Part shown: one piece after another, positions 35,561 through 51,464 of the stretch
How positions within the stretch are numbered: position 1 is the stretch's first letter
How the letters are laid out: each line of letters starts with the position of its first letter
DNA from: a virus
Taxonomy: Duplodnaviria > Caudoviricetes
IMG/VR virus record: IMGVR_UViG_3300037222_000092
Coordinates: 1-62,068 of that record
Reading direction: 5' to 3' (one strand)
Length of the DNA stretch: 62,068 bases
Translations under genes and position numbers: made by a program
The notes under the pieces: generated by a model
What the model saw: only the letters and a program-made list of their open reading frames with translations
Database searches by the model: none
Told to the model about the DNA's origin: nothing

Positions 35561-35632
35561 GATGGCTCTCCTTGTGATGAAAGAACCGCCCAAATGGACG
35601 GATCATAGATGTCTGTGTTTTTGTGATGAGTC

Positions 35633-36073: not shown

Positions 36074-36116
36074 GAATTATCTCGGGGTCACAATGATGGA
36101 AAGATCAGTTGGCCAA

Positions 36117-36755: not shown

Positions 36756-36764
36756 TTTCGTCTC

Positions 36765-37148: not shown

Positions 37149-37150
37149 CC

Positions 37151-37726
37151 CTATTTCGCCTTGATCTTGATCTTGACGGTCTGATCCATCGTGCGTCCTC
37201 CAGACGTGACGATGCGGTTAGTCAGAGAATATCTCTGGCCAATCGTGCCACCAGATAGCCAGATGGCGCTGACAAGATCAGCCTTCGTGTCGCTGTTTTT
37301 TGTTATTCCGGTTGGAATAATCCACGTCGACGATGATATAGTATCGCCCTCTTCATCTAATGCGTTAGACCAATCGACATAATAATCAAGAATGTCATCT
37401 GGATCCTTGAACGGCCATGAGAGAGATCTTCCGAGATTAACGATAACGACACGAGAAGCTGGCATGAGCGCCACCGGAGCTGGAGACTCTGTCGTTCCTG
37501 TAGCTGCCTGGCCAAATGCCGGCACCGTCTCATCTTCTGAAGCGGCGATGATAGCCGCAGCAGCAGCAGTTTGACCAAATTGCGGGACCGTCTCGTTTTC
37601 TAGCGCAGAGATGATAACCGCAGTAGTCGCGGCCTGCGCGAAGTCTGGAATATTTTGTGACGCAGAGGCATTGATGCTGCCACCGCCGCCACCACTGGGT
37701 TGGTTAAATAGTAAAAGCAACGACAT
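37151..37726 (-). CDS. Fibre adaptor-like protein with N-terminal MSLLLLF tag
   Basis: C-terminal KDPDDILDYYVDW...IWLSGGT.G..Y..TNRIVTSGGRT domain; internal ETVPxFGQ repeats. Confidence 0.7.
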   Translation of the reverse strand: MSLLLLFNQPSGGGGGSINASASQNIPDFAQAATTAVIISALENETVPQFGQTAAAAAIIAASEDETVPAFGQAATGTTESPAPVALMPASRVVIVNLGRSLSWPFKDPDDILDYYVDWSNALDEEGDTISSSTWIIPTGITKNSDTKADLVSAIWLSGGTIGQRYSLTNRIVTSGGRTMDQTVKIKIKAK

Positions 37727-37836
37727 TTAATGTCCTTTGGTCGACGCTGGCGCCCGCGAGATGTTGGAATTTAGGGTACTAGCCAAGGTCGGCTGATTGC
37801 CTTAAGTTCAGGTGCTTCAATCAGGAGTTGCCAAAA

Positions 37837-38010
37837 ATGGAAAAAGACACCGATTGGAATTATTACGAGAGCTCTTTCACCACAAAACTTCTAATCGACG
37901 GATCAAGGTCATCTGGTCCTCTCATGCGACGGCAGATTAACCACGAGTGGAAATATCGCCGTATGACAAAAGAGGAAGAAACTGAATATATGTCCGGGAC
38001 AATTTGGTAA
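37837..38010 (+). CDS. Small inverted moron-like gene
   Basis: AGGAG RBS; opposite strand inside the late operon. Confidence 0.55.
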   Translation: MEKDTDWNYYESSFTTKLLIDGSRSSGPLMRRQINHEWKYRRMTKEEETEYMSGTIW

Positions 38011-38053
38011 CACCAGGACCGGTCCGACGCCAGTTGATGTTGTCAGTACCGAA

Positions 38054-38992
38054 TCACCCACCCATCATTGGGATGCCTGAAGATTTCACGGCTACGGTAG
38101 CTCCTGGTCCACCACTGCTACTAAGACCAGCATATCCCAAGCCAGGACCCGTCAGACCCCAGCCAATTATCGTCATATACAACCAATCAATTGGCTTAAG
38201 AGGAACGCTGCTTGATGTTGAGGGTGCAAAGCCCGTACTACCGAAGGCGTTGAAGGCGCTAGCATATGGAGTAGAACCCAAATTGTCGCCAGTATCTCCG
38301 TTAGTGTTGTTGTTCATGCTAACGATGCTGGTCGCGCCGCCATCCGAAGATAGATAGCGAGTGCCAGAGGCCGCGTTATTGCGCGTTCCACTTGCGCTAT
38401 AAGTAAAAATGTCTGCGATGTAAAAGGTGGTATTTGCGCCGGTGTTCATTTCACGGCCAAGAACTTCCGTGAACTCGTGCATCATTACACCATAGAGAGA
38501 ATATCCTCCCGTACATGTTGATCCGTCTACGCTGGTTATATCAAAACTAGCAGAGCTGCTAAATCCGCAATAACCGTCGGTAGCACTGCCAGTCCAAAAG
38601 CCAAGTGCTTTAGTAAGTGCCGAGGCAATCAAAATAGTCTCTGACCAACCAAACGGGTCTGTGGCTGGTAAATTTGTGGATGGATTAAATGCTGAAGTCT
38701 GTAGAGTATTTAACCCTGTAAATCCAGACAACGTAGTTCTGATATTAGCGTATGTTTCCGTATCGACGAAGTACATGCTCTGGCCAATATCGCCAGAGCC
38801 CATCGTTTGATTATCGACTTCGCCGTATCCACAATATATGTTGATCGTTACATCGGTTCCGTCCGAACGAAGCGTGGAAAGAGCGGTCTGAAGATCCGAA
38901 ACAACTCTTGTCCTAATAATATTCCAGGCCGCCATATTAGCATTAGTTGACCAAGATGTATCATCGTGGACTACAAGTGTCAGTGCTCCCAT
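38054..38992 (-). CDS. Zincin-like metalloprotease-domain protein (HExxE variant)
   Basis: KALG...DGYCGFSS...HEFTEVLGR...D.FTYSASGTR...YLSSDGG...GDTGD. Confidence 0.65.
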   Translation of the reverse strand: MGALTLVVHDDTSWSTNANMAAWNIIRTRVVSDLQTALSTLRSDGTDVTINIYCGYGEVDNQTMGSGDIGQSMYFVDTETYANIRTTLSGFTGLNTLQTSAFNPSTNLPATDPFGWSETILIASALTKALGFWTGSATDGYCGFSSSASFDITSVDGSTCTGGYSLYGVMMHEFTEVLGREMNTGANTTFYIADIFTYSASGTRNNAASGTRYLSSDGGATSIVSMNNNTNGDTGDNLGSTPYASAFNAFGSTGFAPSTSSSVPLKPIDWLYMTIIGWGLTGPGLGYAGLSSSGGPGATVAVKSSGIPMMGG

Positions 38993-39186
38993 TATGATAC
39001 ACCATACAGTTGCACGTCACCTGCTAAACCGACGACTTTCTCACCATCTGAAACATCGACTTGGGCCAGTTCTTTCGTGGCATATCGGATCGCGCCAGAG
39101 GGATTATCAGCATATAGGCGAGGAGGACCGATGGAAGACAGAAGCTTCCCGGTCTGCATATTTCGGACGAGAAAAATCATGCCCAT
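38992..39186 (-). CDS. Small hypothetical protein
   Basis: Coupled at both ends. Confidence 0.55.
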   Translation of the reverse strand: MGMIFLVRNMQTGKLLSSIGPPRLYADNPSGAIRYATKELAQVDVSDGEKVVGLAGDVQLYGVS

Positions 39187-39797
39187 CAGTTAAACGCCGC
39201 GTTGCAATCAAGAACAGGAGATGGAGCTGATGCTCCGGTAGCGGTTGTCGTGGCTGCGGCGCTGATGCCCGTGCCACCGATTGCAACTCCACCAACAGAT
39301 AAGGTAAACCCCCCGCTTCCACCCGGTTCAATGGGAAACGAATATACCGGCGTATCGGTTCCTACCGTCACGCTGCCAAAAGGTTTGCTGAAAACTTGCA
39401 CATAGACTTGCGATGCGCCGGAGTTGCCACACACCAGCATTCCAAGATTTCCAGCCGACGATTTTATGGCCTGTGCGCTATTTGTCAGCGCACTAAGTCT
39501 CGCAGGGCTTAACGCTGTGCTGCTGACTATCCAAGGCGACGTTCCCTGGTTTACGGCAGGGGCCGAAGGAAAGGTCACAAAGAAGGGGTTGCCGGTGACA
39601 CCGAACGCCGCGCCTGAAGCGTCCGCTGGCACCTGAAGCGGGCAAATGCCGGTGCAATTGAACGACTTCGCCGTTTGCGTCGTACCAGCAGCATCCTTGA
39701 ATGTGAAAGTGGTCTGAGCATTAGCAGTACCGATGAGGCCAACGATAAACGTCAGACTTAATAGAAGTTTTTTCATTTGCTGCTTCACGATTAACAT
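39186..39797 (-). CDS. Sec-signal beta-sandwich protein (paralog of 47247)
   Basis: MKKLLLSLTFIVGLIGTANA; AIKSSAGNL...N....YVQVF...GIS.A.T. Confidence 0.75.
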   Translation of the reverse strand: MLIVKQQMKKLLLSLTFIVGLIGTANAQTTFTFKDAAGTTQTAKSFNCTGICPLQVPADASGAAFGVTGNPFFVTFPSAPAVNQGTSPWIVSSTALSPARLSALTNSAQAIKSSAGNLGMLVCGNSGASQVYVQVFSKPFGSVTVGTDTPVYSFPIEPGGSGGFTLSVGGVAIGGTGISAAATTTATGASAPSPVLDCNAAFN

Positions 39798-42700
39798 TTA
39801 AATGCCCCACTTTGCTGTGAAATAAGCATCCAGAGCAGCGATGTCGGTCGGGCTGAGAACATCATTGACGACGACGAGCTCGGCTATCTTGCCTGGCATA
39901 GCATTTGCCCACGCCGAAGTCTTCGTCGCCACAATGCATCCTGGACTACCAAGAGTTCCGCTACCGGGAGCTACTGGAGTTCCACCGACGCCGTTGACGT
40001 AAGCCGTAAAACCAGTCGTCGGATTTGTCCCATCGTAGATAGACCCGACCCGTATCCATCCACCGGCCGTATAGCTCTGTGTTGCGACTGCGTTGTTGTG
40101 ATAAGCCGAGATCGTAGTAGAATTCTGGAATTGAATGCCAATCATCGAAGTCGGCGTGTAGTAATCGCTCGCATTGACGTAATCTATATCCGCCATCCAA
40201 CTCGCAATACGTGAGCTACTAGGAGAGCCATTCGCCAAAACGACAGCAAACATCGACATCTTGTTCGGGTTGAATATCAACCGGAACGAGTTGGAAACCA
40301 ACCCTTCCACATCAGAGTTAGTGCTAACCTGTACGACTTGTATTCCGTTCAACGAGTCCGTGACAGGCCTGGATTCGTTCTCGCCGCCGTTATAGAGCGT
40401 GTGTCCGTATAAGCTATTATCCGACCATGCCGTCACGTACCAAACACCATGCGTAGGATCGTTTACGGTAAAAAGTCCATTGTCGCCCTTGTACCAGCCG
40501 ATCAGATTTTGCAGTTTCTTCGGCGTCCAGGCTGACGCCGTTGAAGGAACGATCGCCGTGTTGCCGTCCCATGCGTGCAGATACATCATGGTCAGCGTGA
40601 AGGGCATTTCGTAGCCCCAAACGTAGCTCTCGTTTGACTGGATCGCGAACTTGTCTTGCAGCTGCAGTTCCCAGAACGACTGCGCGTAGCACCACGGCAC
40701 CATCTGCTTCGCGTAGCCGTTCGCGCCGTAGTTCGTCGTGCTCACGTTCTGCGCGATGGGAGACAAAGGCCCGTTGAGGTTGCCGACCGGGAATCCAGAG
40801 CTGCTGCAAAAGGCCCAGTACCCTGGGCTACACCAGCCGGCCGGCGTCGGAATTCCAGAATTGTAGGAGTCGTCGTGCGTACAGGCCTCGATGTGGCGCA
40901 GCCCGTGCATGGCGCTGTGTGAACGTCCAACCATGTTCGCACCTTGGCACCATTGAACGACGCTCTGCATCGCCTTTAGGTAATCGGTTCCTGTTGGAGG
41001 ATTTCCGCTCGGTACAGGATTGAGCTTCATCACGTGGACTTTGATAAGCGCGTCCCATCCGTTGAATTGCCAGGGACTTGACGCTCCTCCCCAGCCGCCC
41101 CGGAAGCAATTATCATCCGCCAGAAACTGCGAGGTGTTGACGTTGACGGTCGCGCGGTTATACCAGTACACCGACATATTAATTCCGGTGGTGGTTCCGA
41201 ACAGCGTTTGCATCCTCGCAAGAAGACCTGTCGTATAGGCCCAATTCAACTGATCCACGGTATTGATGTTTGTATTAATTAAGTTCGAAGACATGCCGCC
41301 GTCCGTCAACCACGTCTCGTAAAATGATCCCGCCGCCGACGCCGCGCCGACAAGCTTCACGTAGGAGCAGCAAGCGGAGGTGATCGCAGGCGCGCAGTGA
41401 TTATCAAGCGTGGTCATGTTCGTGGCAAACGTCGGGTCGGTCCAGACCATGTAGGTCTTCATGCCGATCTCACCGTCATAATAGGCGGTTTGGTTGGTCA
41501 GGTTTTGATAGAGGTTATAAGCCCAATTAAAGGCAGCAAGCCCGGAGTTGTAATAAGCCGTATAGGCGGCTGATGACCCGAGCCCGTACTGCGTCAGGAT
41601 ATCGCATAGATTCCACGCTGCCGAAGCGTAAAGCATCGTCGTCCAGTGGTCAGCCGCGTAGAGGAACGATGCTATGGGTCCATGCACGGATGAAGCAAAG
41701 GTCGGGTCGGTACCACAGTAAGTATCCATGGATACTGGCGCGAACGCGGTCTGCTGGGCGAAGTGACCTATGCCGTAGCCACCCGGAACTCGCCCGTCAC
41801 CGATCTGCGCTTGCGGGACGCGGTACGCCTCTAGCGCATAGATGGCCTCGTGTACAATGGCAGGCAAGATGTCAGTTGAACTGTCCCACACGGACGGGTC
41901 ACACATGGCCGAACTGAGCTGCGTCGGAGTCTGGAACGGCGTGACGCGGCCGTTCTTAGGAATATATTTAATCATACCAACGAAAGCGTTAATATTTCCC
42001 ATGTGATCAGATGCGAGGTCGTCGTTGTCGCCCGCATCTTGATGCGCCGGATGGCTACCGACCGCGCGCAGCGCGGGTGAGACAAGTCTCCCAGTCCAGT
42101 TGTAGGATCCACCGAAGTTATAAGGAATAGTAAGCGACTGGTTGTACGCTCCCGTCCCAGACAAATAGTGCGTGGGGTGGTCGCCCATGTTGTCCAGGAC
42201 CACGCCGCTCCCCTCAGATGATGCCATCGAGATAAGTGTTGACCAGTAATTCTCGTAGCCGCCGACGCCGTCGAGCTGGCACGGTCCGCGCTGGTAGGAA
42301 CCGTAGTCGAGAGCCATCCCGAGCCGGTGCTGATAAAGCCCGCGATGATAATGCGCGCATGTCAGCGCGTGCGCGGCCTCATCGATGAGGATCTCATCGC
42401 TTACGCCGTATCCTGGGATGTAGAGTTTATAGCGCCCCGGCGTCGTGAAGGACGAGTAGTCCATGCCGTAGACGTTCGTTCCGGCGCGGTTCGTCGCCTC
42501 CAGGCACTTGAAGGCCATGTTCTCGTAGCCGCCGTGTGGGCCGGGGCCGACGCCCGACGCGGCATGATCCCATGTCCCCGTCGTTAGGGCCGTGGTGTTG
42601 TTAACGGCAACCGATACCTGTGTGGCGTTGATATAGGTGACCGGGAGCGCGATGTTCGTCGCAGGATTCGAACAGCTGTTCACTGGGTCGCTGGTGTTTT

Positions 42701-43757
42701 CGAGATTACCAGCCCCGCTCATGCCGAAGCATCGCATGTGGTCGCCATTGCTGAATCCGTGCCCGCCAGCAAAGGTCAGCGTCGTCGGATTGCCTGTCGT
42801 TGAGACAGAGGTGATCTTCCAGACCTGACTCAAATCAGTCAGATCAAAACCGTGTAAATAGGCACCTCCGCCTGAGTCCACTGTGTCGATCTGATTGTAC
42901 GCCCTTCGAATTGTGATGCCGCCGACGCCACTGATACGCGCGAAGGTGGCGACCGTAGCCAGCGTCACAGCGTCGATGAGATAGAATGTCGCACCATCGC
43001 CCATGCCATAAGCCGCGAAATCGACGACGCCGTTCCCGCGCCCCGGAACGCGGCTGCATAGGTACGCGAGCTTCACCTCATCGTTCGGGCGGTGGCCTCC
43101 GTGCGAGACCTTGATGCCCCCCGCGCGGGTCACCTTGTCGTTGAACGTTAACGTCCTGTCCGGGAACGCCGCCGCGCTATGGCTGATCTTGTATGCCGTG
43201 TTTGCTACCGGAGGCGACGCCAGCTGAATGTAGGCCGTCAGCATACCGCGCTGGATGCTGAAGTTTCCGTCATAGCCGGCGCCGCAGAATTCCGTGCGCG
43301 CGGTGACCGCGCTCACCGTCAAGCCCGCACCACCCACGATCGAGTAGTTGGACGCCTGAGCGAATGCCACCCGATCTATGTAGCGCGGCGGATAGAGGTC
43401 CACAAACCTGACCGCGCTCTCATCTGGCCTTACGACCTGACAGCTTTGGCTGCTAGGGTAAGGAGTATTACCATCACGTGGGTTATTTTTGGTATGGTAT
43501 GCTCCATAAGTGTCGGTGTATGGCGTGGCAGGCGTGAAGATGTTGCCTGACTTGATCGGGTCGTCGCGCTCCATAACGCCAATAACGTCCGGTGTCTCCA
43601 TCCAGACATCATTCTGCAGCGCAGGCGAATAAATTGGCTGGAACGTAGTAGGCGCAGCTCCAGACGGTTTACCATGCCGAAACCAGGCCTCAGCTTCTCT
43701 TGGTGCAAAGGCTAACGCCGTGGCCCCTATTAACAAGTTTCTGCGGGATACGCTCAT
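39798..43757 (-). CDS. Tat-signal GH9 (cellulase-like) glycoside hydrolase with C-terminal LamG-like domain
   Basis: SRRNLL signal; DYSSFTTPGRYKLYIPGYGVS (Ig-like N-domain); RGLYQHRLG; HQDAGD; SNE near the end of the catalytic domain; IAELVV...YFTAKWGI. Confidence 0.75.
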   Translation of the reverse strand: MSVSRRNLLIGATALAFAPREAEAWFRHGKPSGAAPTTFQPIYSPALQNDVWMETPDVIGVMERDDPIKSGNIFTPATPYTDTYGAYHTKNNPRDGNTPYPSSQSCQVVRPDESAVRFVDLYPPRYIDRVAFAQASNYSIVGGAGLTVSAVTARTEFCGAGYDGNFSIQRGMLTAYIQLASPPVANTAYKISHSAAAFPDRTLTFNDKVTRAGGIKVSHGGHRPNDEVKLAYLCSRVPGRGNGVVDFAAYGMGDGATFYLIDAVTLATVATFARISGVGGITIRRAYNQIDTVDSGGGAYLHGFDLTDLSQVWKITSVSTTGNPTTLTFAGGHGFSNGDHMRCFGMSGAGNLENTSDPVNSCSNPATNIALPVTYINATQVSVAVNNTTALTTGTWDHAASGVGPGPHGGYENMAFKCLEATNRAGTNVYGMDYSSFTTPGRYKLYIPGYGVSDEILIDEAAHALTCAHYHRGLYQHRLGMALDYGSYQRGPCQLDGVGGYENYWSTLISMASSEGSGVVLDNMGDHPTHYLSGTGAYNQSLTIPYNFGGSYNWTGRLVSPALRAVGSHPAHQDAGDNDDLASDHMGNINAFVGMIKYIPKNGRVTPFQTPTQLSSAMCDPSVWDSSTDILPAIVHEAIYALEAYRVPQAQIGDGRVPGGYGIGHFAQQTAFAPVSMDTYCGTDPTFASSVHGPIASFLYAADHWTTMLYASAAWNLCDILTQYGLGSSAAYTAYYNSGLAAFNWAYNLYQNLTNQTAYYDGEIGMKTYMVWTDPTFATNMTTLDNHCAPAITSACCSYVKLVGAASAAGSFYETWLTDGGMSSNLINTNINTVDQLNWAYTTGLLARMQTLFGTTTGINMSVYWYNRATVNVNTSQFLADDNCFRGGWGGASSPWQFNGWDALIKVHVMKLNPVPSGNPPTGTDYLKAMQSVVQWCQGANMVGRSHSAMHGLRHIEACTHDDSYNSGIPTPAGWCSPGYWAFCSSSGFPVGNLNGPLSPIAQNVSTTNYGANGYAKQMVPWCYAQSFWELQLQDKFAIQSNESYVWGYEMPFTLTMMYLHAWDGNTAIVPSTASAWTPKKLQNLIGWYKGDNGLFTVNDPTHGVWYVTAWSDNSLYGHTLYNGGENESRPVTDSLNGIQVVQVSTNSDVEGLVSNSFRLIFNPNKMSMFAVVLANGSPSSSRIASWMADIDYVNASDYYTPTSMIGIQFQNSTTISAYHNNAVATQSYTAGGWIRVGSIYDGTNPTTGFTAYVNGVGGTPVAPGSGTLGSPGCIVATKTSAWANAMPGKIAELVVVNDVLSPTDIAALDAYFTAKWGI

Positions 43758-44770: not shown

Positions 44771-46290
44771 ATCGTCAGCCCTATCTTGGTTCCCATGTAC
44801 GTTTCGAGATGAGCGAGGTTCGTCGGGCTGATCGATCCTGAGAGCTTGATCACCAGCTCAGCGATGTCGGCCGCAAAGAATAACGAGTTCGAGACAAGGG
44901 AAGCGTTCCCTAAAGCAAAGTTCGCGCTGGTTAGCGTACCGGGAGCACTGTAGGTGTACGTCCCGACTTGAACCCCGTTTACCCGAGCAGTCAGTTTGGT
45001 TCCGTCGTCGATAAAGGTCAGCACCTTCCAAGTGTTGTCGAAGACTCCGGTAGCTAATGTTTGGTTGTTCACAAAAATTCCGCCAGCATCGTTCCTCATG
45101 TTCGCCAGCCACGTGGACGCAGTCGTTACACCAGAGCCGATGGGGTCGAATATCTCCGATCCAGAGGTGACAAACTCCTGAAGCAAAACGCGGCTGGCGG
45201 CCGGGTTTGGCTTGACCGCCATGCAGATTGTTGATCCTGCATGAGATGTCATAGCCGCAGCTAAACCAAGCGGAGTGGCCTTCCCAAGGACATCATTGAT
45301 GCCATCGAAACTGACGCAACGCGGAGAAGTTTTGAACACTGGAACGGGGAAGTTCTGGGTTGATCGCGGAATGATGTCAGAGATCGCAGCGAGATTAAAC
45401 GCGGAACCACTCTTATCGCTCCAGTTAGCTACGTGGTCTAGATTGAAAACAACCTGGCTGGTTCCCGCCAAATACTGCCACATTGTGAATCGATCATCGG
45501 CGGCCAGCCAAAGATTAGGCGCGATGGTGGTAAGGACGTCAAATCCGGTGCTGGGCGATTGCGTCCAACCGCCCGAAGACGCAACGGCAGAGTTGTTCCC
45601 TGCCACGTCCTGATGCACGAAGTAGGCGTGGCGAGTGCCCGATGTGGTCAGTCCGAACGCAGTGGCAGCAAGGCTCGTGCTTGAAACCGGCGTCAATCCA
45701 TTTGCCAAGGCCGCGGTCCCGCCGTCGTTCTGACCGGCAACGACCTGGGCTATGGTTGGTGGCGTTGCGCTTGCGGTCACCACCCAAAATAGAGAGCCGG
45801 GACTGTCGTTCGTCGTCACCGACAAGGCGGCGTTAGTATCGTTGGTACCATTCTGTGCACCAGCGGCACTCGAAAGAGTTGGGGCTATCGTATCGATCAC
45901 TACTGTCAGTGGCGTACCGGCGATACCACCATTAACCGTCGCAGTGAATATGTGAGTGCCGTCGGCGAGCGCCGAAAGTCCCCAACTAAATGCGCCGGCG
46001 TTAGCCTCTCCGGAGGTGATAGTGTGGGTTGAAATTGTTGTGCTGCCGTCGATGAGTGCGACGACATCACCAGATTTTAGAATCTGATCGGTGTTAAGCG
46101 CGATGTTCGGAACATTATTATTGGTAATGTTGTCTGAAGGAGACGATCCGGTGTCTGAGGTTAGCGTCAACAGAGGAAATGATGAAGAAGGAGGCGGCGG
46201 GCTTCCGTGCGGCCACCATGCTTCGGCGTCCTGCGATATTGCTATCGTAGCCGCACCAGCCAATAGAAAGTTTCGTCGAGAGAACTTCAC
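44767..46290 (-). CDS. Tat-signal protein with Ig-like and LamG-like domains
   Basis: SRRNFLL signal; SDTGSS.SDNITN...LADGTH.FTAT...IDT.AP Big-type repeat; WLAADD..WSDKSG..FDG.ND..IAELV. Confidence 0.8.
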   Translation of the reverse strand: MKFSRRNFLLAGAATIAISQDAEAWWPHGSPPPPSSSFPLLTLTSDTGSSPSDNITNNNVPNIALNTDQILKSGDVVALIDGSTTISTHTITSGEANAGAFSWGLSALADGTHIFTATVNGGIAGTPLTVVIDTIAPTLSSAAGAQNGTNDTNAALSVTTNDSPGSLFWVVTASATPPTIAQVVAGQNDGGTAALANGLTPVSSTSLAATAFGLTTSGTRHAYFVHQDVAGNNSAVASSGGWTQSPSTGFDVLTTIAPNLWLAADDRFTMWQYLAGTSQVVFNLDHVANWSDKSGSAFNLAAISDIIPRSTQNFPVPVFKTSPRCVSFDGINDVLGKATPLGLAAAMTSHAGSTICMAVKPNPAASRVLLQEFVTSGSEIFDPIGSGVTTASTWLANMRNDAGGIFVNNQTLATGVFDNTWKVLTFIDDGTKLTARVNGVQVGTYTYSAPGTLTSANFALGNASLVSNSLFFAADIAELVIKLSGSISPTNLAHLETYMGTKIGLTI

Positions 46291-46293
46291 GTT

Positions 46294-47232
46294 TTAGCAA
46301 CCGATGCAATGGCTTCCGCCTCCGGCTCCGCCGGTTGGCGCGTTAATGGTGATGCCAGTGTTGCTCCCCATGTCGAAGGAGTTGTTCGCGGTCACGGCGG
46401 TCGTGGTGAACGTGGTATGAAAAATTGATGCCCAGCTTATTGTCGCCGCTGTAGTGATTGCCAGATTTACGGCTTGCGCAGCACTGTCGTCAAACTGGAT
46501 CAGTCCGGTCGACGTTCCGATAGCATTTAACGTCCCGATAGTTTGCGTTGCGTTCCCTGTAATAATATATCTGGCTGGCCCGTTTAGATTTAGTGTGGCG
46601 ATGGTGCCGCCAGTATTACCAAAAGACTTAGGCGTACCGGTCGACGAGTTCATCGTAACTATGTTGTAGGTTTTACCGCCGCCGTTCCAGATACTCGATC
46701 CGTTAACACCGTTCCCGCCCCACACGATCGTCGAACTGTTTGCATTAAACGTCAGATTGGTTACGACGCTGAAGTCCCAATTAACGCCGGTCGCCACAGA
46801 TCCGCTCAGGGTCCATGTTCCGTTCCCTAGATTTAGGGTTCTGGTTCCAGTCCCCGTGCCGCTAAACTCATTGGTTAAAGTAATATTCGGGTTGCTCGTC
46901 GCAAAATCCAGCGTTCCTGTGAACGCACCCATGGTGATTGATTGGAACGTGGAATTATTTAGGGTGGAATCTGCCGTGACGGTGCCGCCGCCCGAACTGG
47001 CGTCGAAGGTGGCCTTATCGGTTGTCGCCGACGGTAAGCAAGTACAGGTCGTTCCACCACTGGTGAACGACCAATGTGTAGTGGACGAGTTGTCCCACGT
47101 TCCGGTGCCACCAATCCAATAGCAATTATTAGCCGGCGTTCCGCCTGAGCATGTAGTCGCGTTCGCAGCAGACGGCAGCGAGACGAACGCCAGCGCCAGC
47201 GCAGTGAGAGCGTAGCGAAGGAAAGATTTCAT
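46294..47232 (-). CDS. Sec-signal beta-helix-like protein
   Basis: Signal ending AANA; YWIGGTGTWD...FDASSGGGTVT; Thr/Gly/Asn-rich; C-terminal GGAGGGSHCIGC. Confidence 0.75.
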   Translation of the reverse strand: MKSFLRYALTALALAFVSLPSAANATTCSGGTPANNCYWIGGTGTWDNSSTTHWSFTSGGTTCTCLPSATTDKATFDASSGGGTVTADSTLNNSTFQSITMGAFTGTLDFATSNPNITLTNEFSGTGTGTRTLNLGNGTWTLSGSVATGVNWDFSVVTNLTFNANSSTIVWGGNGVNGSSIWNGGGKTYNIVTMNSSTGTPKSFGNTGGTIATLNLNGPARYIITGNATQTIGTLNAIGTSTGLIQFDDSAAQAVNLAITTAATISWASIFHTTFTTTAVTANNSFDMGSNTGITINAPTGGAGGGSHCIGC

Positions 47233-47246
47233 GGCGCGGTCCTCAC

Positions 47247-47852
47247 TCAGTTTAAGTCAATGTTGACACTCATGGCGCCGGCAGTCGCCGCCGTGGTGTC
47301 GGTGAGTGCGTAGCCAGAAGTCACACAAATTGAGATGCCAGCGGAGAACGCTATACCAACCGTGTAATGAACCGAGATACCGCCAACCGAAGTCGAAGCC
47401 GGGATGGCGTATTGTTTGATGGCGTTCGTTGCGCTGTTGCATCCGTTAAATCCGGTCCCCGCGTTATAGAAACGGATGTAATTGACCGTGGCAGAATTGT
47501 TGGTGACGGTGAACCCGTAGAGGGTGCCAGCACCGTTCTTCACGACTTGATGGTTGTCGCTAGCGGTAGGCTGAAACACCGGGTATGCCGTCGCACCACC
47601 TGACGGTCCCGCCGTCGGCGTTTCAAAGAGCGGATTGGCCGCCGTACCCTTTTCAGCTCCGGTATTGTCAATCAGCACCGTGGCCGAGCAAATATCCGTC
47701 GTTTGACAGACAAATGACCAGATCGGTGCTGCTGTGCCTGGCTGCGGCAGGTTGAACGTCGTTCCTGCCCCGCCGAACACGTACATCGACGGAAAGATCA
47801 GGACCGCGAGAGCGAAAAGCCCGAAGCCCCAATGCTTGAGAAACTGTTTCAT
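47247..47852 (-). CDS. Signal-bearing beta-sandwich protein (paralog of 39186)
   Basis: Hydrophobic N-terminus; VVKNGAGTLYG...N....YIRFYN...GIAFSAGIS; RBS AAAGGAAA. Confidence 0.75.
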   Translation of the reverse strand: MKQFLKHWGFGLFALAVLIFPSMYVFGGAGTTFNLPQPGTAAPIWSFVCQTTDICSATVLIDNTGAEKGTAANPLFETPTAGPSGGATAYPVFQPTASDNHQVVKNGAGTLYGFTVTNNSATVNYIRFYNAGTGFNGCNSATNAIKQYAIPASTSVGGISVHYTVGIAFSAGISICVTSGYALTDTTAATAGAMSVNIDLN

Positions 47853-47868
47853 GGTGTGTTTTCCTTTG

Positions 47869-48084
47869 TCAGAACTGCATGGGAGACGGGATGAACGCGA
47901 CTGTGTCCGAGCAAGCCTGCGGTATTCCCGGCATAATCGCGCAGTTGCCTTGGGTGACTGGAGGAGTAACTCCACCACTGATGCTGATGTTGTAGTTGGA
48001 GTCGCGCGACTGCCAATACGTCCATGCACCCGTCGCAACGAACCATAAGCAAGTTGCGAGCAGCGCAGTGCTCAGGCTTCTCAT
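47869..48084 (-). CDS. Small exported peptide
   Basis: Signal-like N-terminus then YWQSRDSNYN, a GG/PP linker and a Cys pair; ATGA-coupled. Confidence 0.6.
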   Translation of the reverse strand: MRSLSTALLATCLWFVATGAWTYWQSRDSNYNISISGGVTPPVTQGNCAIMPGIPQACSDTVAFIPSPMQF

Positions 48085-48803
48085 AGTTCATACCCGAACG
48101 AATTTACATCTACCGCCGAGGCGGTTCCGTCAGCCGTAGTCGTGATGGTGATCGGAGTGTTCACCGCGATGGCCGGGATACAGGGGTTGAAACTTCGCGA
48201 GAACGTGGATCCTGCTGCGGTTGATGAGAACTGATAAGTTGCCGAGCTTGTAATCAAACCTGCAACTACTATCGGTCCCACCGTTGCCGTTCCTCCGAGA
48301 GCCGACACGTCGAAACCGCAGATGTAGGTCGTCTTGGCACTCGTTCCGGCGAGCGTGCCAACGACCGCGCCGGTTGTACCTGTGCTGTTGCCCGTGATCG
48401 GCGTAGCACCACCAGGGTATTGCCCGGTTAGGTAGCCTATGGGATTGGTCCCTGCAGGAATGGCCGCAGCGCTGTTTGTAACAAGCGTCGCCAAAGAAGA
48501 ATTTGCTGTTGTTTGATTGGCAGAAGTTGCCGCACCCGTCGGCAGTGAAATAGTACCGCTGACGTTCGTTACATTCCATGTCCCTGACTGTGCCACCAGG
48601 AACGGCGTCATGGCTGATATGCCCTGCACTGTCAGAACATTTGACTTCGCCGTTCCCGCCGTCCCAATAAGGTTGTCCAACGTCGAGACAGTGCCAGATC
48701 CTGCCGTTGGCACGCCGCTGGTGATTGTGACCGTGCTGACATTCTGCGCACAAGCCAGACTCGGAGCCAGCGCGATAAGTAGGGCTAGGATTATCTTGCG
48801 CAT
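48081..48803 (-). CDS. Sec-signal protein (paralog of 48927)
   Basis: MRKIILALLIALAPSLACA; QYP.GA.PIT...KTTYICG...PCIPA...GYEL. Confidence 0.8.
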   Translation of the reverse strand: MRKIILALLIALAPSLACAQNVSTVTITSGVPTAGSGTVSTLDNLIGTAGTAKSNVLTVQGISAMTPFLVAQSGTWNVTNVSGTISLPTGAATSANQTTANSSLATLVTNSAAAIPAGTNPIGYLTGQYPGGATPITGNSTGTTGAVVGTLAGTSAKTTYICGFDVSALGGTATVGPIVVAGLITSSATYQFSSTAAGSTFSRSFNPCIPAIAVNTPITITTTADGTASAVDVNSFGYEL

Positions 48804-48804
48804 G

Positions 48805-48930
48805 TTAAAATCCTAAAAAGTAGTAGGTCGGATGACCTGATGGGGGCGGACTGCCTCCGGTGCCGTGCCAGAACGCAAGTGCTGGAGCGGTTAGAGCAAG
48901 CGCAGCTATGAGTACGAGGACAAGTTTCAC
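48805..48930 (-). CDS. 41-aa exported peptide (mature FWHGTGGSPPPSGHPTYYFLGF)
   Basis: GTG overlaps the upstream TGA; 19-aa signal ending ALA. Confidence 0.65.
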   Translation of the reverse strand: MKLVLVLIAALALTAPALAFWHGTGGSPPPSGHPTYYFLGF

Positions 48931-49829
48931 AGTTGATATCCCCAGCCCTTCGACGATACATTGCCACCGGCACCTGGCGTTCCAGAGACAATGGCAATGC
49001 CAGTGTTGGTCGCACTTGCCGGGATGCACGGCGAGAATATTTGTTCGTCAACCCCGATGCCTGAAGCAAGAGGGGCAACCCACATGATCGAACTCATCGT
49101 TGCTGTGATGACGCCAGTGATCGTGTTGGTGACGGTCGCGGCTGCGGTCGCGTTAGCGCGGATCGAGTAGCCACAGATGTACGTGGTCTTTCCAACGGTG
49201 CCAGCGAGCGTTGCGGTTGTTGCCCCCGTGGTTCCGGTAGCTGACGCGGTAATCGGAACGGCCCCAGCCGGGTACTGACTAGTAGAGGTTGAATTTGTAA
49301 CCCACGGAGACGTGCCCTGATTGACTGTGCCGATAACCTTGGTCGTCTCAGCATTCAGTATTGCCGGTTGTGGTTGCCCCCCGCTAACGCCCTGCACCGT
49401 CACAATGGCGCCGGTCGGAGTTCCCGCCGTTGCCGTACCTGGGTTAAGCCCAACAACAAGTGTTGTGTCAGTCGCCGCAGGCAAGGTTGATGCCGCCTTG
49501 ACAGTCGCGACGTTGGCGCCGGCGCTGTCGACTATACCGACGCCGCCGATCGAGACCGTCGGGGCTTGGGTAGGAATTGCGCCAGTGATGCCAGCCAAGA
49601 TGGCGGCAGAATTTGCCTCGGTGACTGTGTTCGTTACAAACGCATTAACCCCAGGCACCTTCACCGCGCCGGGTGATGTGCCGTAGTTTGCCATCGCTCC
49701 TAAGATTGGGCTGGCTCCAGCGCCCCACTGTTTCACATTGACATTGCCAGTCTGTGCCCATGCAACGCTAGGCGCGAACAGCAGCGCAAGGACAACAAAC
49801 CTGATGGTATTTTTCATCATGATCACCAC
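48927..49829 (-). CDS. Sec-signal protein (paralog of 48081)
   Basis: Signal ending AWA; QYPAGAVPIT...KTTYICG...PCIPA...GYQL. Confidence 0.8.
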   Translation of the reverse strand: MVIMMKNTIRFVVLALLFAPSVAWAQTGNVNVKQWGAGASPILGAMANYGTSPGAVKVPGVNAFVTNTVTEANSAAILAGITGAIPTQAPTVSIGGVGIVDSAGANVATVKAASTLPAATDTTLVVGLNPGTATAGTPTGAIVTVQGVSGGQPQPAILNAETTKVIGTVNQGTSPWVTNSTSTSQYPAGAVPITASATGTTGATTATLAGTVGKTTYICGYSIRANATAAATVTNTITGVITATMSSIMWVAPLASGIGVDEQIFSPCIPASATNTGIAIVSGTPGAGGNVSSKGWGYQL

Positions 49830-50242
49830 TTGATCGCTGTGAATTTGTGCCCGGTCGTGGCGCCGACTATGCTGACGGAATGGAATGGAAGCATGCCGTG
49901 TGGCGTCGTATAGCTACCCCCGCCAGCAGCGACGTTGATACTCGCTTGTCCATTCGCCAGCGCAGTAGTTGATAATGAAATCCATAAATCTTCGGTCGCG
50001 TCTGGATTGTGAACCGTGAATCCGTTTGTCGGTGTTGCGGATGCAAATAAATCCTGCGCGGTTCCGCCAGTAGTAATCGTTCCTGATCCATCCGATCCAG
50101 AGGCAGTCGAAATTATTTCGGCACCCGCGCTGGTATTTGGCACAAAGCGCTGAAGTTGCTTTGTTACCGCATCCTCAGTAATCGAATTGGTTGCTATATC
50201 AGCGCCGGAGCCCGGAGTGACCGGTACATTAGAAGTTGTCAT
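49823..50242 (-). CDS. Beta-sandwich virion-associated protein
   Basis: NVPVTPGSGA; SGTITTGGTAQ...GATTGHKFTA; no signal peptide. Confidence 0.7.
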   Translation of the reverse strand: MTTSNVPVTPGSGADIATNSITEDAVTKQLQRFVPNTSAGAEIISTASGSDGSGTITTGGTAQDLFASATPTNGFTVHNPDATEDLWISLSTTALANGQASINVAAGGGSYTTPHGMLPFHSVSIVGATTGHKFTAIKW

Positions 50243-50246
50243 CGGA

Positions 50247-50654
50247 TTAGGCCCCCGGCGCTGTCTTGGTGAATCCGTTGACGTTGATGGTCTGGCCGAT
50301 TGCAATCGATGGATTATCGACCGTCAGATCGCCACCACTTCCTGTGATAGTAACTGCCCCCTGTTCGTGACAAGTTGCCCCAGTCGAATCATAAATTCGG
50401 TAATGTCCGATCGTGCCTGCGGCGAGACCTGTCGTCACCAGGGATAAATTATTAAATACCTTTGCTCCCGCTGACGCAGCAGCTGCCCAATCTGATGCCA
50501 TAGCATCCTCAGCGAGTAACGTGCCCGCTTCGGCTGCGGCACAATTTGCAGGCTGTGCCCCTGTGTAAAATCGCAATTTCGCAGAAGGGCCGATCGCGGT
50601 TTCCCACGCATCGAGCATCCCGTTGCGAACGGTCGTGGAATTTTGAACGGTCAT
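50247..50654 (-). CDS. Virion structural protein (fibre/neck-associated)
   Basis: RNGMLDA...LRFYTGAQPA...GT..HYRIYDS.G..CH.QG.V...GGDL. Confidence 0.7.
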   Translation of the reverse strand: MTVQNSTTVRNGMLDAWETAIGPSAKLRFYTGAQPANCAAAEAGTLLAEDAMASDWAAAASAGAKVFNNLSLVTTGLAAGTIGHYRIYDSTGATCHEQGAVTITGSGGDLTVDNPSIAIGQTINVNGFTKTAPGA

Positions 50655-50729
50655 GGGAATGCCTCATGTTAGATTGGCGAAGCGGAATTGATCATTGCGG
50701 AATAGCGGACACCGCGACCGTGACACGCG

Positions 50730-51461: not shown

Positions 51462-51464
51462 GGA

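What the first reader, a model, noticed from the sequence alone, without database searches (positions are those of the whole stretch)
37151..50654. Exported, modular 'cellulosome-like' appendage locus inside the head-tail joining genes
Seen: 14 co-oriented, mostly tightly coupled genes lie between the gp6 connector and the head-tail adaptor. Nine start with export signals: Sec-like at 48927, 48805, 48081, 47869, 47247, 46294 and 39186, and Tat (SRRNFL, SRRNLL) at 44767 and 39798. Two paralog pairs of beta-rich proteins (48927/48081 and 47247/39186) alternate with cargo genes: GH9-like, SGNH esterase, zincin-like, beta-helix and Ig+LamG. Signal-less structural-type genes (50247, 49823, 37151) bracket the block. 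Established: tailed-phage virion proteins assemble in the cytoplasm and normally lack cleavable signals. Inference: subunits mature in the periplasm and dock onto the virion at or after lysis as a branched enzyme/lectin appendage, or they form a late-expressed host-surface or matrix-degrading complex.
Basis: partly seen in the sequence, partly recalled or inferred. Interest (0 to 1): 0.92.

Follow-up and report, generated by a model that had tools for sequence, protein, structure and literature searches.

The report
Exported lectin/enzyme cassette inside phage fibre genes
A peat-soil phage carries, in the middle of its neck and fibre genes, a swappable block of genes for proteins that are exported out of the host cytoplasm; they most likely bind and cut sugars at the cell envelope and are probably not parts of the virus particle.

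Summary
The window is a whole 62-kb temperate siphophage genome. Between the head-tail adaptor (50730-51461) and the neck genes (from 37148 down) lie 15 co-oriented, almost gap-free ORFs. Nine have Sec- or Tat-type N-termini, against 5 of 73 ORFs elsewhere in the genome.

The region is composite.
- **Ends:** the signal-less end genes are ordinary virion genes for a "chain-like fibre" of the GP4/A1002 kind. These are a fibre subunit (50247) and a Gp77 adaptor with N-terminal docking repeats (37151).
- **Middle:** the block 38054-49820 is an accessory cassette. It holds two Tat proteins (Big_13+LamG; a 1319-aa GH9-like protein), a signal-less NF038122 metalloprotease, and four Sec proteins that end in two jelly-roll domain types. 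Both types belong to large, unnamed families (at least 878 and 2494 hits) whose members nearly always carry signals; the nearest protein-atlas clusters are viral.

Close relatives carry two small genes, a different fibre set, or a different exported set at the same site, so it is a cargo hot spot.

Best reading (about 0.5): late-expressed, exported glycan-binding and glycan-cutting proteins that act on the envelope or matrix. Docking onto virions after lysis is neither supported nor excluded.

The parts
50730..51461 (-). Head-tail adaptor. Upstream flank and anchor of the variable site.
   Evidence: phrog_442 'head-tail adaptor', E 8.5e-24. 66-79% identical in relatives L030-L034.
50247..50654 (-). 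Signal-less virion protein: subunit of a chain-like fibre (GP4 gp80 / A1002 gp40 kind).
   Evidence: phrog_3758 'virion structural protein', E 3.2e-26. Family profile A2 hits PDB 44nx_B (147 aa), E 2e-9. I equate that chain with A1002 fibre I gp40 by its length and the PDB code given in PMC13730344. Weak hit to 8jou_a, E 0.052. No Pfam Gp80 hit at E <= 0.1. Follows the adaptor in other phages that have no exported block.
49823..50242 (-). Signal-less 139-aa protein of unknown role, possibly a second fibre subunit.
   Evidence: phrog_22789, E 3.8e-10. No solved relative.
48927..49820 (-). Sec-signal protein with a variable N-terminal part and a conserved C-terminal jelly-roll ('type A', residues 181-297).
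   Evidence: Signal heuristic. 878 homologs, 114 of the 120 listed with signal-like N-termini. C-terminal domain about 85-93% identical in many homologs. Model pLDDT 79-97 per 10-residue block for residues 181-297. Jelly-roll matches, best Z 8.2.
48805..48930 (-). Doubtful 41-aa ORF: signal-like N-terminus followed by FWHG.
   Evidence: Not seen in L003. A terminator-like hairpin at 48838-48825 lies inside it.
48081..48803 (-). Sec-signal paralog of 48927 (type A jelly-roll).
   Evidence: BLASTP E 4e-22 against 48927. 76% identical over its first 127 aa to the L003 homolog.
47869..48084 (-). 71-aa Sec-signal ORF. Its N-terminus resembles that of longer exported GH54-like proteins in other contigs.
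   Evidence: 83% identical over 71 aa in L002/L003. phmmer hits to L006_5867 (9e-7) and L005_10424. L006_5867 matches ArabFuran-catal, E 1e-7.
47247..47852 (-). Sec-signal protein ending in a 'type B' jelly-roll (residues about 85-201).
   Evidence: 2494 representatives at E <= 1e-3, with the match at the C-terminal end. Of the 143 listed representatives that start with M, 128 have signal-like N-termini. Model pLDDT 87-95 per 10-residue block for residues 91-201. Jelly-roll matches, best Z 7.8.
46294..47232 (-). Sec-signal, Thr/Gly-rich protein with 6 Cys. The beta-helix reading was not tested.
   Evidence: Homologs sit next to type A/B genes in L003 and L014. 0 Pfam, PHROG or NCBIfam families.
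44767..46290 (-). Tat-signal protein: mature N-terminus WWPHG, then a Big_13 Ig-like domain and a LamG domain.
   Evidence: Pfam Big_13 2.9e-7, Laminin_G_3 1.3e-7, TAT_signal 0.02. Motif.
43754..44770 (-). Signal-less 338-aa protein with a GDSN motif. It overlaps both Tat genes by 4 bp. Its family is unknown.
   Evidence: 0 families.
39798..43757 (-). Tat-signal 1319-aa protein: mature N-terminus WFRHG and a distant GH9-like region.
   Evidence: CelD_N 0.0021, below cut-off. Profile A3 matches CelD 4cj0 at E 0.0015 and CbhA at 0.068. Homolog P0004 has a weak Glyco_hydro_9 hit, 4.4e-4. Only 5 non-self homologs found, and none in GenBank phages. ESM Atlas lead only (0.75).
39186..39797 (-). Sec-signal paralog of 47247 (type B family, divergent).
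   Evidence: BLASTP E 1e-5. Signal heuristic.
38992..39186 (-). 64-aa ORF without a signal. Unknown, and possibly not a gene.
   Evidence: 0 families.
38054..38992 (-). Signal-less NF038122-family metalloprotease. Last gene of the cassette.
   Evidence: NCBIfam NF038122, E 6.4e-24, 85.4 bits against a cut-off of 80. The match begins at profile position 20.
37727..38053 (.). The only sizeable spacer (327 bp). It separates the cassette from the fibre adaptor gene.
   Evidence: No Rfam family. No terminator-like site on the minus strand there.
37151..37726 (-). Fibre-tail adaptor: C-terminal Gp77 domain (residues 107-186) and an N-terminal repeat region predicted to dock dimers of the 50247 protein.
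   Evidence: Pfam PF23148 Gp77, E 6.6e-25. 8jou_D, E 9.2e-5. Complex prediction score 0.80 against best control 0.00, interface at residues 14-40. The domain occurs in many siphophages, some annotated 'minor tail protein'.
36765..37148 (-). Conserved 127-aa neck gene. Downstream flank.
   Evidence: 83% identical in L034, where it also follows a Gp77-like 103-aa ORF.

Best explanation
The 13.5-kb stretch is two things nested in one another.

(1) A STRUCTURAL FIBRE KIT AT THE ENDS. The three signal-less end genes belong to the virion. 50247 encodes the small subunit of a 'chain-like fibre'. 37151 encodes the Gp77-type adaptor that ties such a fibre to the neck or tail, and its N-terminal repeats serve as the docking 'rope'. 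The role of 49823 is unknown.

(2) AN ACCESSORY CASSETTE IN THE MIDDLE (38054-49820). The cassette has been inserted into this fibre module, at a site that is a cargo hot spot in this phage lineage. Its products are not built into the particle in the cytoplasm.
- Inferred: the genes are read through with the late operon.
- Inferred: the products are sent by the host Sec and Tat systems into the periplasm, where the jelly-roll proteins form disulfides.
- Inferred: they act on envelope or extracellular polysaccharide, during late infection and when set free at lysis. The GH9-like enzyme, the LamG/Ig protein and the metalloprotease would be the catalytic or binding cargo. The four jelly-roll proteins would be modular lectin-like binders. 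The benefit would be escape and spread of progeny through a polysaccharide-rich matrix, or removal of receptors from debris.

WHAT IS SHOWN: gene order, the signal-like N-termini, family sizes, folds, variable synteny, and the identity of the fibre kit.
WHAT IS INFERRED: late co-transcription, actual export and cleavage, glycan binding, enzyme activity, and the benefit to the phage.
For: EXPORT SIGNALS. 9 of 15 locus ORFs against 5 of 73 elsewhere (p = 1.2e-5). The signal is a family trait: 114 of 120 type A homologs, 57 of 74 long type A relatives, and 128 of 143 M-start type B representatives.

VIRAL, NOT CELLULAR, AS FAR AS SEEN. The nearest ESM Atlas clusters are labelled 'Viruses 100%', resting on the few members with a record.

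NOT TIED TO ONE VIRION TYPE.
- 15 viral contigs carry type A/B genes, but none matches the window's capsid, portal or fibre genes at E 1e-5.
- In L001 and L009 they follow a phrog_156 portal. In L003 they lie between a phrog_332 connector and a phrog_212 head protein.

CARGO HOT SPOT. Relatives with the same backbone differ at this site.
- L033 (capsid 77%, adaptor 74%) has only two small signal-less ORFs of 133 and 126 aa.
- L034 (tube 83%, terminator 91%) has 373-aa, 703-aa repeat and Gp77-like 103-aa ORFs.
- L030/31 (portal 86%, capsid 82%) has three other signal-bearing ORFs, a DUF5672 protein, a Pfam Gp80 fibre subunit (E 3.3e-20) and an 888-aa repeat protein.

ENZYME CONTENT OF THE MODULE FAMILY. 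GH5 (E 9.6e-24) and GH54-like (E 1e-7) proteins sit behind signals in L001 and L006. The window has weak GH9 signals, Big_13+LamG and NF038122.

FIBRE KIT.. Complex prediction gave 0.80 against a best control of 0.00. That mark was reached by 58 of 80 solved complexes and 2 of 110 mismatched pairs. The runs agree in at least 86% of contacts, and the partner's pLDDT is at least 44. Like complexes are solved (GP4, A1002), so this pass may reflect likeness only.

PRECEDENT. A paper reports signal peptides in 3261 of 64,678 prophage CAZymes (PMC13507307; passages read).

A REAL POPULATION. The locus was laid without differences in the listed pieces, and with depth in all 30 bins, in 4 peat or permafrost runs from 4 studies.
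Against: - There is no promoter or terminator excess in the region: 14 against 13.4 expected, and 15 against 16.0 expected.
- G+C is like the rest of the genome.
- Spacers are -4 to +16 bp. The cassette therefore lacks the marks of an independent moron and is expressed like a structural gene.
- Type A/B proteins share stalk modules with a signal-less 905-aa fibre-like protein that ends in a type B domain (L012/L013).
- Their jelly-roll heads resemble receptor-binding heads, cement proteins and Bdellovibrio fibre tips as much as carbohydrate-binding modules. All Z values are 8.2 or less, which is the range of common folds.
- Two cassette proteins (43754, 38054) have no signal.
- No glycan binding, enzyme activity, export or expression was measured.
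- The host is unknown.
- My signal test is crude. It flagged a capsid homolog in L033, for example.
Confidence: 0.5

Rival explanations
1. VIRION APPENDAGE MATURED OUTSIDE THE CYTOPLASM. The exported jelly-roll proteins and Tat enzymes fold and form disulfides in the periplasm. They meet the finished particles at lysis and dock on them, for instance on the rope repeats of 37151 or on the fibre. This would give the phage a set of swappable receptor-binding or depolymerase tips.
For: - Position inside the neck and fibre genes, and tight coupling to them.
- No signals for expression of their own.
- The layout is signal, then variable stalk, then a jelly-roll head, and stalk modules are shared with a signal-less 905-aa fibre-like protein.
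- Fold matches include phage receptor-binding heads (Tuc2009, PRD1 P5), baseplate proteins and cement proteins.
- In three other backbones the genes sit directly after the portal or connector gene.
- A docking 'rope' is encoded next to the block.
Against: - The families recur in contigs without any match to the window's fibre, adaptor or capsid genes. A common virion docking partner is therefore not evident.
- The part that is conserved (about 90% identity) is the C-terminal head and not an N-terminal anchor. This is the reverse of virion fibres.
- Relatives with the same backbone do without the block.
- From my own knowledge, tailed-phage virion proteins with cleaved signals are not described. 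Two full-text searches gave no case among the 15 listed titles and abstracts each.
Confidence: 0.12
2. PERIPLASMIC OR SURFACE GUARD ARRAY. The exported, hypervariable jelly-roll proteins bind host receptors, or bind incoming phage parts. They would act as superinfection exclusion or receptor masking for the lysogen or the infected cell. The enzymes would remodel the envelope.
For: - The phage is temperate (integrase at 13976-15139).
- Strong diversification of the N-terminal parts against a fixed C-terminal domain, and several paralogs per phage, look like an arms race.
- The modules resemble fibre parts that bind cell surfaces.
- From my own knowledge, periplasmic and lipoprotein exclusion factors of phages are established (P1 Sim, T5 Llp, Cor).
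Against: - No promoter-like excess or separate transcription unit that would allow expression from the prophage.
- Known exclusion proteins are single small genes, not 11-gene blocks with glycoside-hydrolase-like enzymes.
- In a diderm host, periplasmic proteins cannot reach surface receptors without a further secretion step.
Confidence: 0.13
3. AUXILIARY CARBON-DEGRADING GENES. The cassette is a set of host-derived secreted carbohydrate-active enzymes and binding modules. These break down plant or Sphagnum polymers in peat and feed the infected or lysogenic host. They would have no role at the host's own envelope.
For: - All 13 runs that hold the locus are peat or permafrost metagenomes.
- GH5, GH54-like and GH9-like enzymes sit behind signals.
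- Virus-encoded glycoside hydrolases of peat are in print (PMC6786970, search listing and start of abstract only; PMC13507307, passages).
Against: - The jelly-roll families have only viral labels among their nearest protein-atlas clusters, and they were almost absent from 185,579 species genomes. They are therefore not recent host loans.
- The GH9-like protein has only 5 non-self homologs.
- The cassette sits in the late structural operon, so the products appear shortly before the cell dies.
Confidence: 0.15

Closest known systems
Chain-like tail fibres of podophages GP4 (gp80 subunit, rope protein, gp77 adaptor; PDB 8JOU) and A1002 (gp40/gp41 on a nozzle-rope protein; PDB 44NX), as described in PMC13730344 (passages read)
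   Same: The window has three matching features: a Gp77-domain protein; a small fibre-subunit homolog (profile E 2e-9 to 44nx_B); and a repeat region predicted to hold a subunit dimer. The relative L031 has a Pfam Gp80 protein next to an 888-aa repeat protein.
   Different: The window phage is a siphophage with a tail tube, tape measure and terminator, not a podophage with a nozzle. The rope here is the N-terminus of the adaptor itself, with about 2.5 repeats (read by eye). An exported-protein cassette splits the kit.
Signal-bearing accessory genes in phage late operons (lambda lom and bor, recalled from my own knowledge) and prophage-encoded carbohydrate-active enzymes with signal peptides (PMC13507307: 3261 of 64,678; passages read)
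   Same: These are non-structural, exported proteins encoded among late or structural genes. They include glycoside hydrolases. The cargo varies at a fixed site.
   Different: Here 9 exported products lie in one block, two of them Tat-dependent. There is no promoter or terminator signal. Four of the products belong to two very large unnamed jelly-roll families.
Bdellovibrio mosaic adhesive trimer (MAT) fibres, e.g. Bd2133 (PMC10769870; passages read)
   Same: These are signal-peptide-bearing, phage-fibre-like modular proteins of a Gram-negative cell with swappable jelly-roll tips. The Bd2133 tip is among the fold matches: Z 6.0, rmsd 3.7, 109 aligned; Z 7.2-7.4, rmsd 3.2-3.6, 101-104 aligned.
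   Different: MAT fibres have a conserved domain of about 130 aa after the signal and a variable C-terminal tip. Here the C-terminal domain is the conserved part and the N-terminal part varies. MAT fibres are cellular genes, whereas the nearest clusters here are viral. The Z values are in the range of common folds.
PBSX exported protein XepA and SPbeta YomS (prophage lytic-cassette beta-sandwich proteins; PDB 6I56, 6I5O)
   Same: XepA is named as an exported protein in its PDB title. It is among the fold matches: Z 6.5, rmsd 3.5, 97 aligned; Z 7.4, rmsd 3.3, 96 aligned.
   Different: There is no sequence relation. The host is Gram-positive. It is a single gene beside holin and lysin genes. The match is no better than to many unrelated jelly rolls.
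Cellulosome (cohesin-dockerin scaffolds)
   Same: Only the general idea is shared: several exported glycan-active modules encoded together. A short tag, W[W/F/T]xHG, occurs at the predicted mature N-terminus of several enzymes.
   Different: No cohesin, dockerin or scaffoldin family was hit in any of the locus proteins scanned. No interaction between cassette proteins was tested.

Membership tests
Sec-type cleavable signal peptide | Positively charged n-region, uncharged hydrophobic h-region of about 10 or more residues, and small residues at -3 and -1 of a cleavage site | tested here: met
   My own heuristic flags 48927, 48805, 48081, 47869, 47247, 46294 and 39186. SignalP was not available, so cleavage is inferred.
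Tat signal peptide | S/T-R-R-x-F-L-K-like twin-arginine motif before a moderately hydrophobic h-region and an AxA site | tested here: met
   SRRNFLL...AEA (44767) and SRRNLLI...AEA (39798). Pfam TAT_signal E 0.02 for 44767, below the cut-off. Export itself was not tested.
Chain-like fibre kit (GP4/A1002 type) | Small fibre subunit of the gp80/gp40 family | tested here: met
   Profile A2 against 44nx_B, E 2e-9. 8jou_a at E 0.052. However, there was no Pfam Gp80 hit for the window protein, and hhalign against the L031 Gp80 protein gave nothing.
Chain-like fibre kit (GP4/A1002 type) | Gp77 fibre-tail adaptor domain | tested here: met
   PF23148, E 6.6e-25, 87.9 bits against a cut-off of 27.
Chain-like fibre kit (GP4/A1002 type) | Rope segment with repeated docking sites for subunit dimers | tested here: inconclusive
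   About 2.5 repeats of about 20 aa were seen by eye in residues 20-80 of the 37151 protein. Complex prediction gave 0.80 against a control of 0.00, with the interface at residues 14-40. This may reflect likeness to solved complexes.
Chain-like fibre kit (GP4/A1002 type) | Podophage tail (nozzle) as the attachment site | tested here: not met
   The phage has a tail tube, tape measure and tail terminator.
Glycoside hydrolase family 9 | Match to the GH9 catalytic domain above the family threshold | tested here: inconclusive
   No PF00759 hit for the window protein. The evidence is CelD_N 0.0021, a weak PF00759 hit (4.4e-4) in homolog P0004, and profile hits to CelD (0.0015) and CbhA (0.068) in two collinear stretches. 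A DAGD motif was seen by eye; its meaning is recalled.
SGNH/GDSL hydrolase (43754) | Match to an SGNH family model and the conserved blocks I, II, III and V | tested here: inconclusive
   0 Pfam and 0 NCBIfam families at E <= 0.1. Only a GDSN motif near the N-terminus. Not folded.
NF038122 family metalloprotease (38054) | Score above NCBIfam's curated cut-off | tested here: met
   85.4 bits against 80, E 6.4e-24, profile positions 20-273 of 274.
Moron (independently expressed accessory gene) | Own promoter and terminator, and deviant base composition | tested here: not met
   Promoter-like and terminator-like sites are at the shuffle expectation. G+C is 0.50-0.58, like the genome. Spacers are -4 to +16 bp.
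Cellulosome | Cohesin and dockerin modules | tested here: not met
   No such Pfam family in the 14 locus ORFs scanned (the 41-aa ORF at 48805 was not scanned) at E <= 0.1.
Bdellovibrio MAT fibres | Conserved beta-rich domain of about 130 aa directly after the signal, with a variable C-terminal tip | tested here: not met
   In alignment A1 the region after the signal is the variable part and the C-terminal 115 aa are conserved.

The most novel reading that the evidence does not exclude
Peat phages use the host periplasm as an oxidising workshop. Two very large families of signal-bearing, disulfide-containing jelly-roll 'fibre tips', together with W-x-HG-tagged Sec/Tat glycosidases, are exported and folded outside the cytoplasm. 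At lysis they snap onto finished virions, for instance on rope-like docking repeats at the neck. This would give tailed phages an exchangeable set of receptor-binding and depolymerase parts assembled after release. That route of virion assembly is not known for Caudoviricetes.
Probability: 0.12. Interest if true: 0.95.

Novelty: new variant of a known kind. Interest (0 to 1): 0.62.

Why it matters
Three points matter, whichever function proves right.

1. **Two very large unnamed protein families.** They have at least 878 and at least 2494 hits, no Pfam, PHROG or NCBIfam model matched the window's members, and no match appeared in 50,697 GenBank phage records. They are defined here by a conserved C-terminal jelly-roll, a mosaic N-terminal part and an almost universal export signal. 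Tailed phages assemble in the cytoplasm, so it needs explaining why so many soil phages send fibre-like proteins out of it.

2. **A bearing on soil carbon estimates.** The cassette links these families to signal-tagged glycoside hydrolases in peat viruses. Exported viral enzymes act outside the cell before lysis. This affects how far viral 'carbon-degrading' genes count as metabolic genes, as release factors, or as infection tools.

3. **A wider range for a new fibre type.** The chain-like fibre kit has so far been described in podophages. It appears here in a siphophage neck, at a site that swaps cargo.

Tried and rejected
SEARCHES THAT FOUND NOTHING
- Megablast of the locus against GenBank phages: no match.
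- tblastn against the same collection with the 1319-aa protein, 48927 and 47247: no match.
- Viral-contig scans with the 1319-aa protein, 37151 and 36117: nothing.
- Genome-contig scan with 48927: nothing. Absence from cellular genomes is therefore not proven.
- Solved-structure sequence searches for the 1319-aa protein alone, for A1 and for 49823: nothing useful.
- hhalign of the 50247 family against the L031 Gp80 protein: probability 0.4, no support.
- Rfam on 36000-52000: 0 families. Tandem repeats: trivial only. tRNAs: 0.

FOLD AND ATLAS SEARCHES
- Foldseek against the PDB for the type A model: no match at E <= 0.001.
- All VIA Z values are 8.2 or less, so no specific fold family is claimed.
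- ESM Atlas for the 1319-aa protein: 0.75 (GH127 + LamG clusters). This is a lead only.

SEQUENCING RUNS
- No RNA holder was listed, so nothing can be said on expression.
- In the laid contigs, the 'goes back' joints of X10 carry Nextera-like adapter letters and are artefacts.
- One 194-bp skip in X8 rests on a single contig with a 24-letter side.
- I saw no variant lacking the block, but contigs cannot show absence.

IDEAS CONSIDERED AND DROPPED
- T9SS C-terminal sorting domain: no Pfam hit, and Tat cargo would not fit.
- Lipoproteins: no lipobox, and the Cys in the signal of 48081 is not conserved in L003.
- ATCUN or histidine-brace reading of the W-x-HG tag: the His position and the Pro do not fit.
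- Diversity-generating retroelement target: the variable part is N-terminal. I did not search for a reverse transcriptase.

NOT RESOLVED
- Tat 'hitch-hiking' of the signal-less 43754 protein, and docking of the W-x-HG tag into the jelly-rolls, are untested ideas.
- The host was not identified.

PAPERS
- Two full-text searches for cleaved-signal virion proteins of tailed phages, or for Tat signals in phage structural modules, listed nothing relevant among the 15 titles and abstracts shown each. The library lacks most subscription journals.
- Supplements were not opened. Those of PMC13507307 and PMC6786970 may list similar genes.

Full report
CONTEXT. The window is the entire record held for this genome: 62,068 bp in one contig. 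It is a temperate siphophage, and all of the following genes lie on the minus strand:
- terminase, 58007-59662;
- portal, 56561-57979;
- HK97-type capsid, 54307-55563;
- head-tail adaptor, 50730-51461 (phrog_442);
- tail terminator, 35633-36073;
- tube, 34097-35593;
- tape measure, 30855-33230;
- tip protein, 25235-29131;
- GH108 and amidase lysis enzymes.

An integrase lies at 13976-15139 on the plus strand. The capsid is at most 52% identical to any GenBank phage. The locus has no nucleotide match there. All 13 public runs that hold the locus are peat or permafrost metagenomes. Contigs of four runs from four studies cover all 30 bins of 36000-52000, and the listed pieces show no differences. 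The locus is therefore a stable part of a widespread natural phage population.

THE OBSERVATION. From 50654 down to 37151 there are 15 co-oriented ORFs. Successive genes are separated by -4 to +16 bp, except for one 327-bp spacer before the last gene. It flags 5 of 73 ORFs in the rest of the genome, giving Fisher p = 1.2e-5. Three of those five lie beside the lysis enzymes. Two of the nine have twin-arginine motifs (SRRNFLL, SRRNLLI) followed by AEA. Seven of the eight Cys-containing exported proteins have an even number of Cys in the predicted mature part. Both paralog pairs are real. Of the cargo labels:
- Ig+LamG holds.
- 'Zincin-like' holds as an NF038122 metalloprotease.
- 'GH9-like' is weakly supported.
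- 'SGNH' is not confirmed.
- 'Beta-helix' was not tested.

THE ENDS OF THE BLOCK ARE A FIBRE KIT.
- The last gene (37151) has a C-terminal Gp77 domain, the fibre-tail adaptor of podophage GP4 (Pfam E 6.6e-25; PDB 8jou_D E 9.2e-5).
- The first gene (50247) is phrog_3758, 'virion structural protein'.
- A profile of its family matches PDB 44nx_B (147 aa) at E 2e-9. By its length and the PDB code given in PMC13730344, that chain is the fibre I subunit gp40 of phage A1002.
- The same paper (passages read) describes chain-like fibres in which subunit dimers are strung on a 'rope' by beta-sheet augmentation. In GP4 the parts are gp80, a rope protein and gp77.
- The N-terminus of the 37151 protein holds about 2.5 repeats of about 20 residues (by eye).
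- A complex prediction of two 50247 subunits with residues 1-105 of the 37151 protein scored 0.80, against 0.00 for the best of three controls. That mark was reached by 58 of 80 solved complexes and 2 of 110 mismatched pairs. The runs agree in at least 86% of contacts, the partner's pLDDT is at least 44, and the interface is at residues 14-40. Like complexes are solved, so the pass may show likeness only.
- Homologs of 50247 follow an adaptor gene in other phages that have no exported block. They also occur in cultured phages, for example Caulobacter phage Seuss, where the gene is annotated as a virion structural protein.
- The Gp77 domain is common in siphophages, and some copies are annotated as minor tail protein.

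THE SITE IS A CARGO HOT SPOT. Five viral contigs share the window's backbone. The stretch between the adaptor and the neck genes differs among them.
- L032/L033 (capsid 77%, adaptor 74%) have only two small signal-less ORFs of 133 and 126 aa. My first gene call had missed them.
- L034 (adaptor 66%, the 127-aa neck gene 83%, terminator 91%, tube 83%) has a 373-aa ORF, a 703-aa repeat protein and a 103-aa ORF that resembles the Gp77 domain by eye. A small type-B-like signal protein sits just upstream of the adaptor.
- L030/L031 (portal 86%, capsid 82%, adaptor 79%) have three different signal-bearing ORFs (one with RR), a 355-aa and a DUF5672 protein, a Pfam Gp80 fibre subunit (E 3.3e-20) and an 888-aa repeat protein.

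The fibre kit and the exported proteins therefore vary independently, and the exported block is dispensable for this backbone.

THE EXPORTED JELLY-ROLL FAMILIES.
- Type A. The 48927 protein has 878 homologs of similar length (best 120 listed), all unnamed and without Pfam domains. Many are 85-93% identical over only the last 39% of the query. Alignment shows a conserved C-terminal domain of about 115 residues with two invariant Cys, behind a mosaic N-terminal part. Signal-like N-termini occur in 114 of the 120 and in 57 of 74 longer relatives of 521-1166 aa.
- Type B. The C-terminal 120 residues of the 47247 protein hit 2494 representatives at E <= 1e-3, with the match at the C-terminal end. 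Of the 143 listed representatives that start with M, 128 have signal-like N-termini.
- Fold. Both domains model confidently: type A blocks at pLDDT 79-97, type B at 87-95. Both are jelly rolls. The best solved matches, in one undifferentiated list, are small-virus capsids, TNF/C1q-like trimers, phage receptor-binding heads and cement proteins, carbohydrate-binding modules, the Bdellovibrio Bd2133 fibre tip and PBSX XepA. All have Z of 8.2 or less. Predicted viral structures match better, for example a 126-aa Curvibacter phage protein at E 1.6e-10.
- Distribution. The nearest protein-atlas clusters are all viral. GenBank phages hold no match at E 1e-3. Two scans of 185,579 species genomes gave one small MAG contig.

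THE CASSETTE IN OTHER PHAGES. Fifteen viral contigs carry type A/B genes, and none matches the window's capsid, portal, adaptor or fibre genes.
- In L001 and L009 the genes follow a phrog_156 portal.
- In L003 a block of four homologs plus a Tat protein lies between a phrog_332 connector and a phrog_212 head protein.
- In L005 and L014 they follow a tail-fibre-like protein and a transglycosylase-bearing large protein.
- Neighbours include a GH5 enzyme (E 9.6e-24) and a GH54-like protein (E 1e-7), both behind signals.
- Seven proteins in four loci have W[W/F/T]xHG or FWHG at the predicted cleavage site. They sit behind either Sec or Tat signals and in front of unrelated domains. I cannot explain this tag.
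- One signal-less 905-aa fibre-like protein (L012/L013) shares stalk modules and ends in a type B domain.

READING. The evidence favours a nested structure: a structural chain-like fibre kit, split by a mobile cassette for exported proteins. For the cassette I commit to late co-expression, Sec/Tat export, and glycan binding and cleavage at the envelope or matrix, at about 0.5. It fits the enzyme content, the independence from any virion backbone, the dispensability in relatives, and the known existence of signal-bearing phage carbohydrate-active enzymes (PMC13507307, passages).

Against it, and in favour of virion docking:
- the lack of any sign of separate expression;
- the fibre-like build;
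- the shared modules with a signal-less fibre-like protein;
- the constant placement among morphogenesis genes.

None of these is decisive, and nothing here measures export, expression or particle content. The alternatives of a guard array in the lysogen and of environmental carbon-degrading genes remain open.

LIMITS.
- The signal test is home-made.
- Gene calls in the loci are greedy longest-ORF calls and missed some genes.
- The host is unknown.
- Supplements of papers were not read.

Noticed in passing
window 46218, 43685, 48805-48930; L001:11532-13106, L001:13222-14985, L003:13725-16505, L004:1960-5088: A short motif, W[W/F/T]xHG or FWHG, sits at the predicted signal cleavage site of seven exported proteins in four loci. 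It follows both Sec and Tat signals and precedes unrelated domains (GH5, GH9-like, Big_13/LamG and others). Its function is unknown. It could be a docking or sorting tag, or a shared leader cassette.
   Followed up: partly
window 8592-8813 (-): A 73-aa ORF far outside the locus also starts with a Tat-like motif (MNRRKFIKG...).
   Followed up: no
window 37727-38053: This is the only long spacer of the locus. It is relatively A+T-rich to the eye and holds a 60-aa plus-strand ORF (37828-38010), opposite to all its neighbours. It has no Rfam match.
   Followed up: partly
window 51465-52172 and 52058-52951 (-): A methyltransferase (phrog_6564, Pfam Methyltransf_23) and a phrog_6804 protein lie between the capsid and adaptor genes. 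As called, the ORFs overlap by 115 bp, so one start is probably wrong.
   Followed up: no
window 24806-25216 (-) and L033:7747-8148: The 133-aa ORF that fills the 'empty' site in relative L033 looks, by eye, like the window's 136-aa ORF next to the tail tip gene (shared S-x-D-G-G-x-x-W-like stretch). This small beta protein may move between the neck and tail-tip positions.
   Followed up: no
window 21475-22140 (-): A class 3 lipase (Pfam Lipase_3, E 1.3e-11) sits among the lysis-region genes, next to several ORFs with signal or transmembrane N-termini.
   Followed up: no
window 3069-4451 (-) and 11843-12874 (+): There are two N6/N4 DNA methylase genes in the early region.
   Followed up: no
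L031:7312-9311: The cargo of relative L030/L031 includes a 355-aa protein that looks like a glycosyltransferase by eye (no Pfam hit) and a DUF5672 protein, next to its exported ORFs and fibre genes.
   Followed up: partly
L031:10104-12770 and L034:8483-10594: These long proteins are built of many short repeats (about 20-40 aa) and lie beside Gp80-type or Gp77-like genes. They are candidate 'rope' proteins of chain-like fibres in siphophage relatives.
   Followed up: no
run X10 laid on window 36000-52000: All 'goes back' joints of this run carry Nextera-like adapter letters between the two sides. They are assembly artefacts, not rearrangements.
   Followed up: yes
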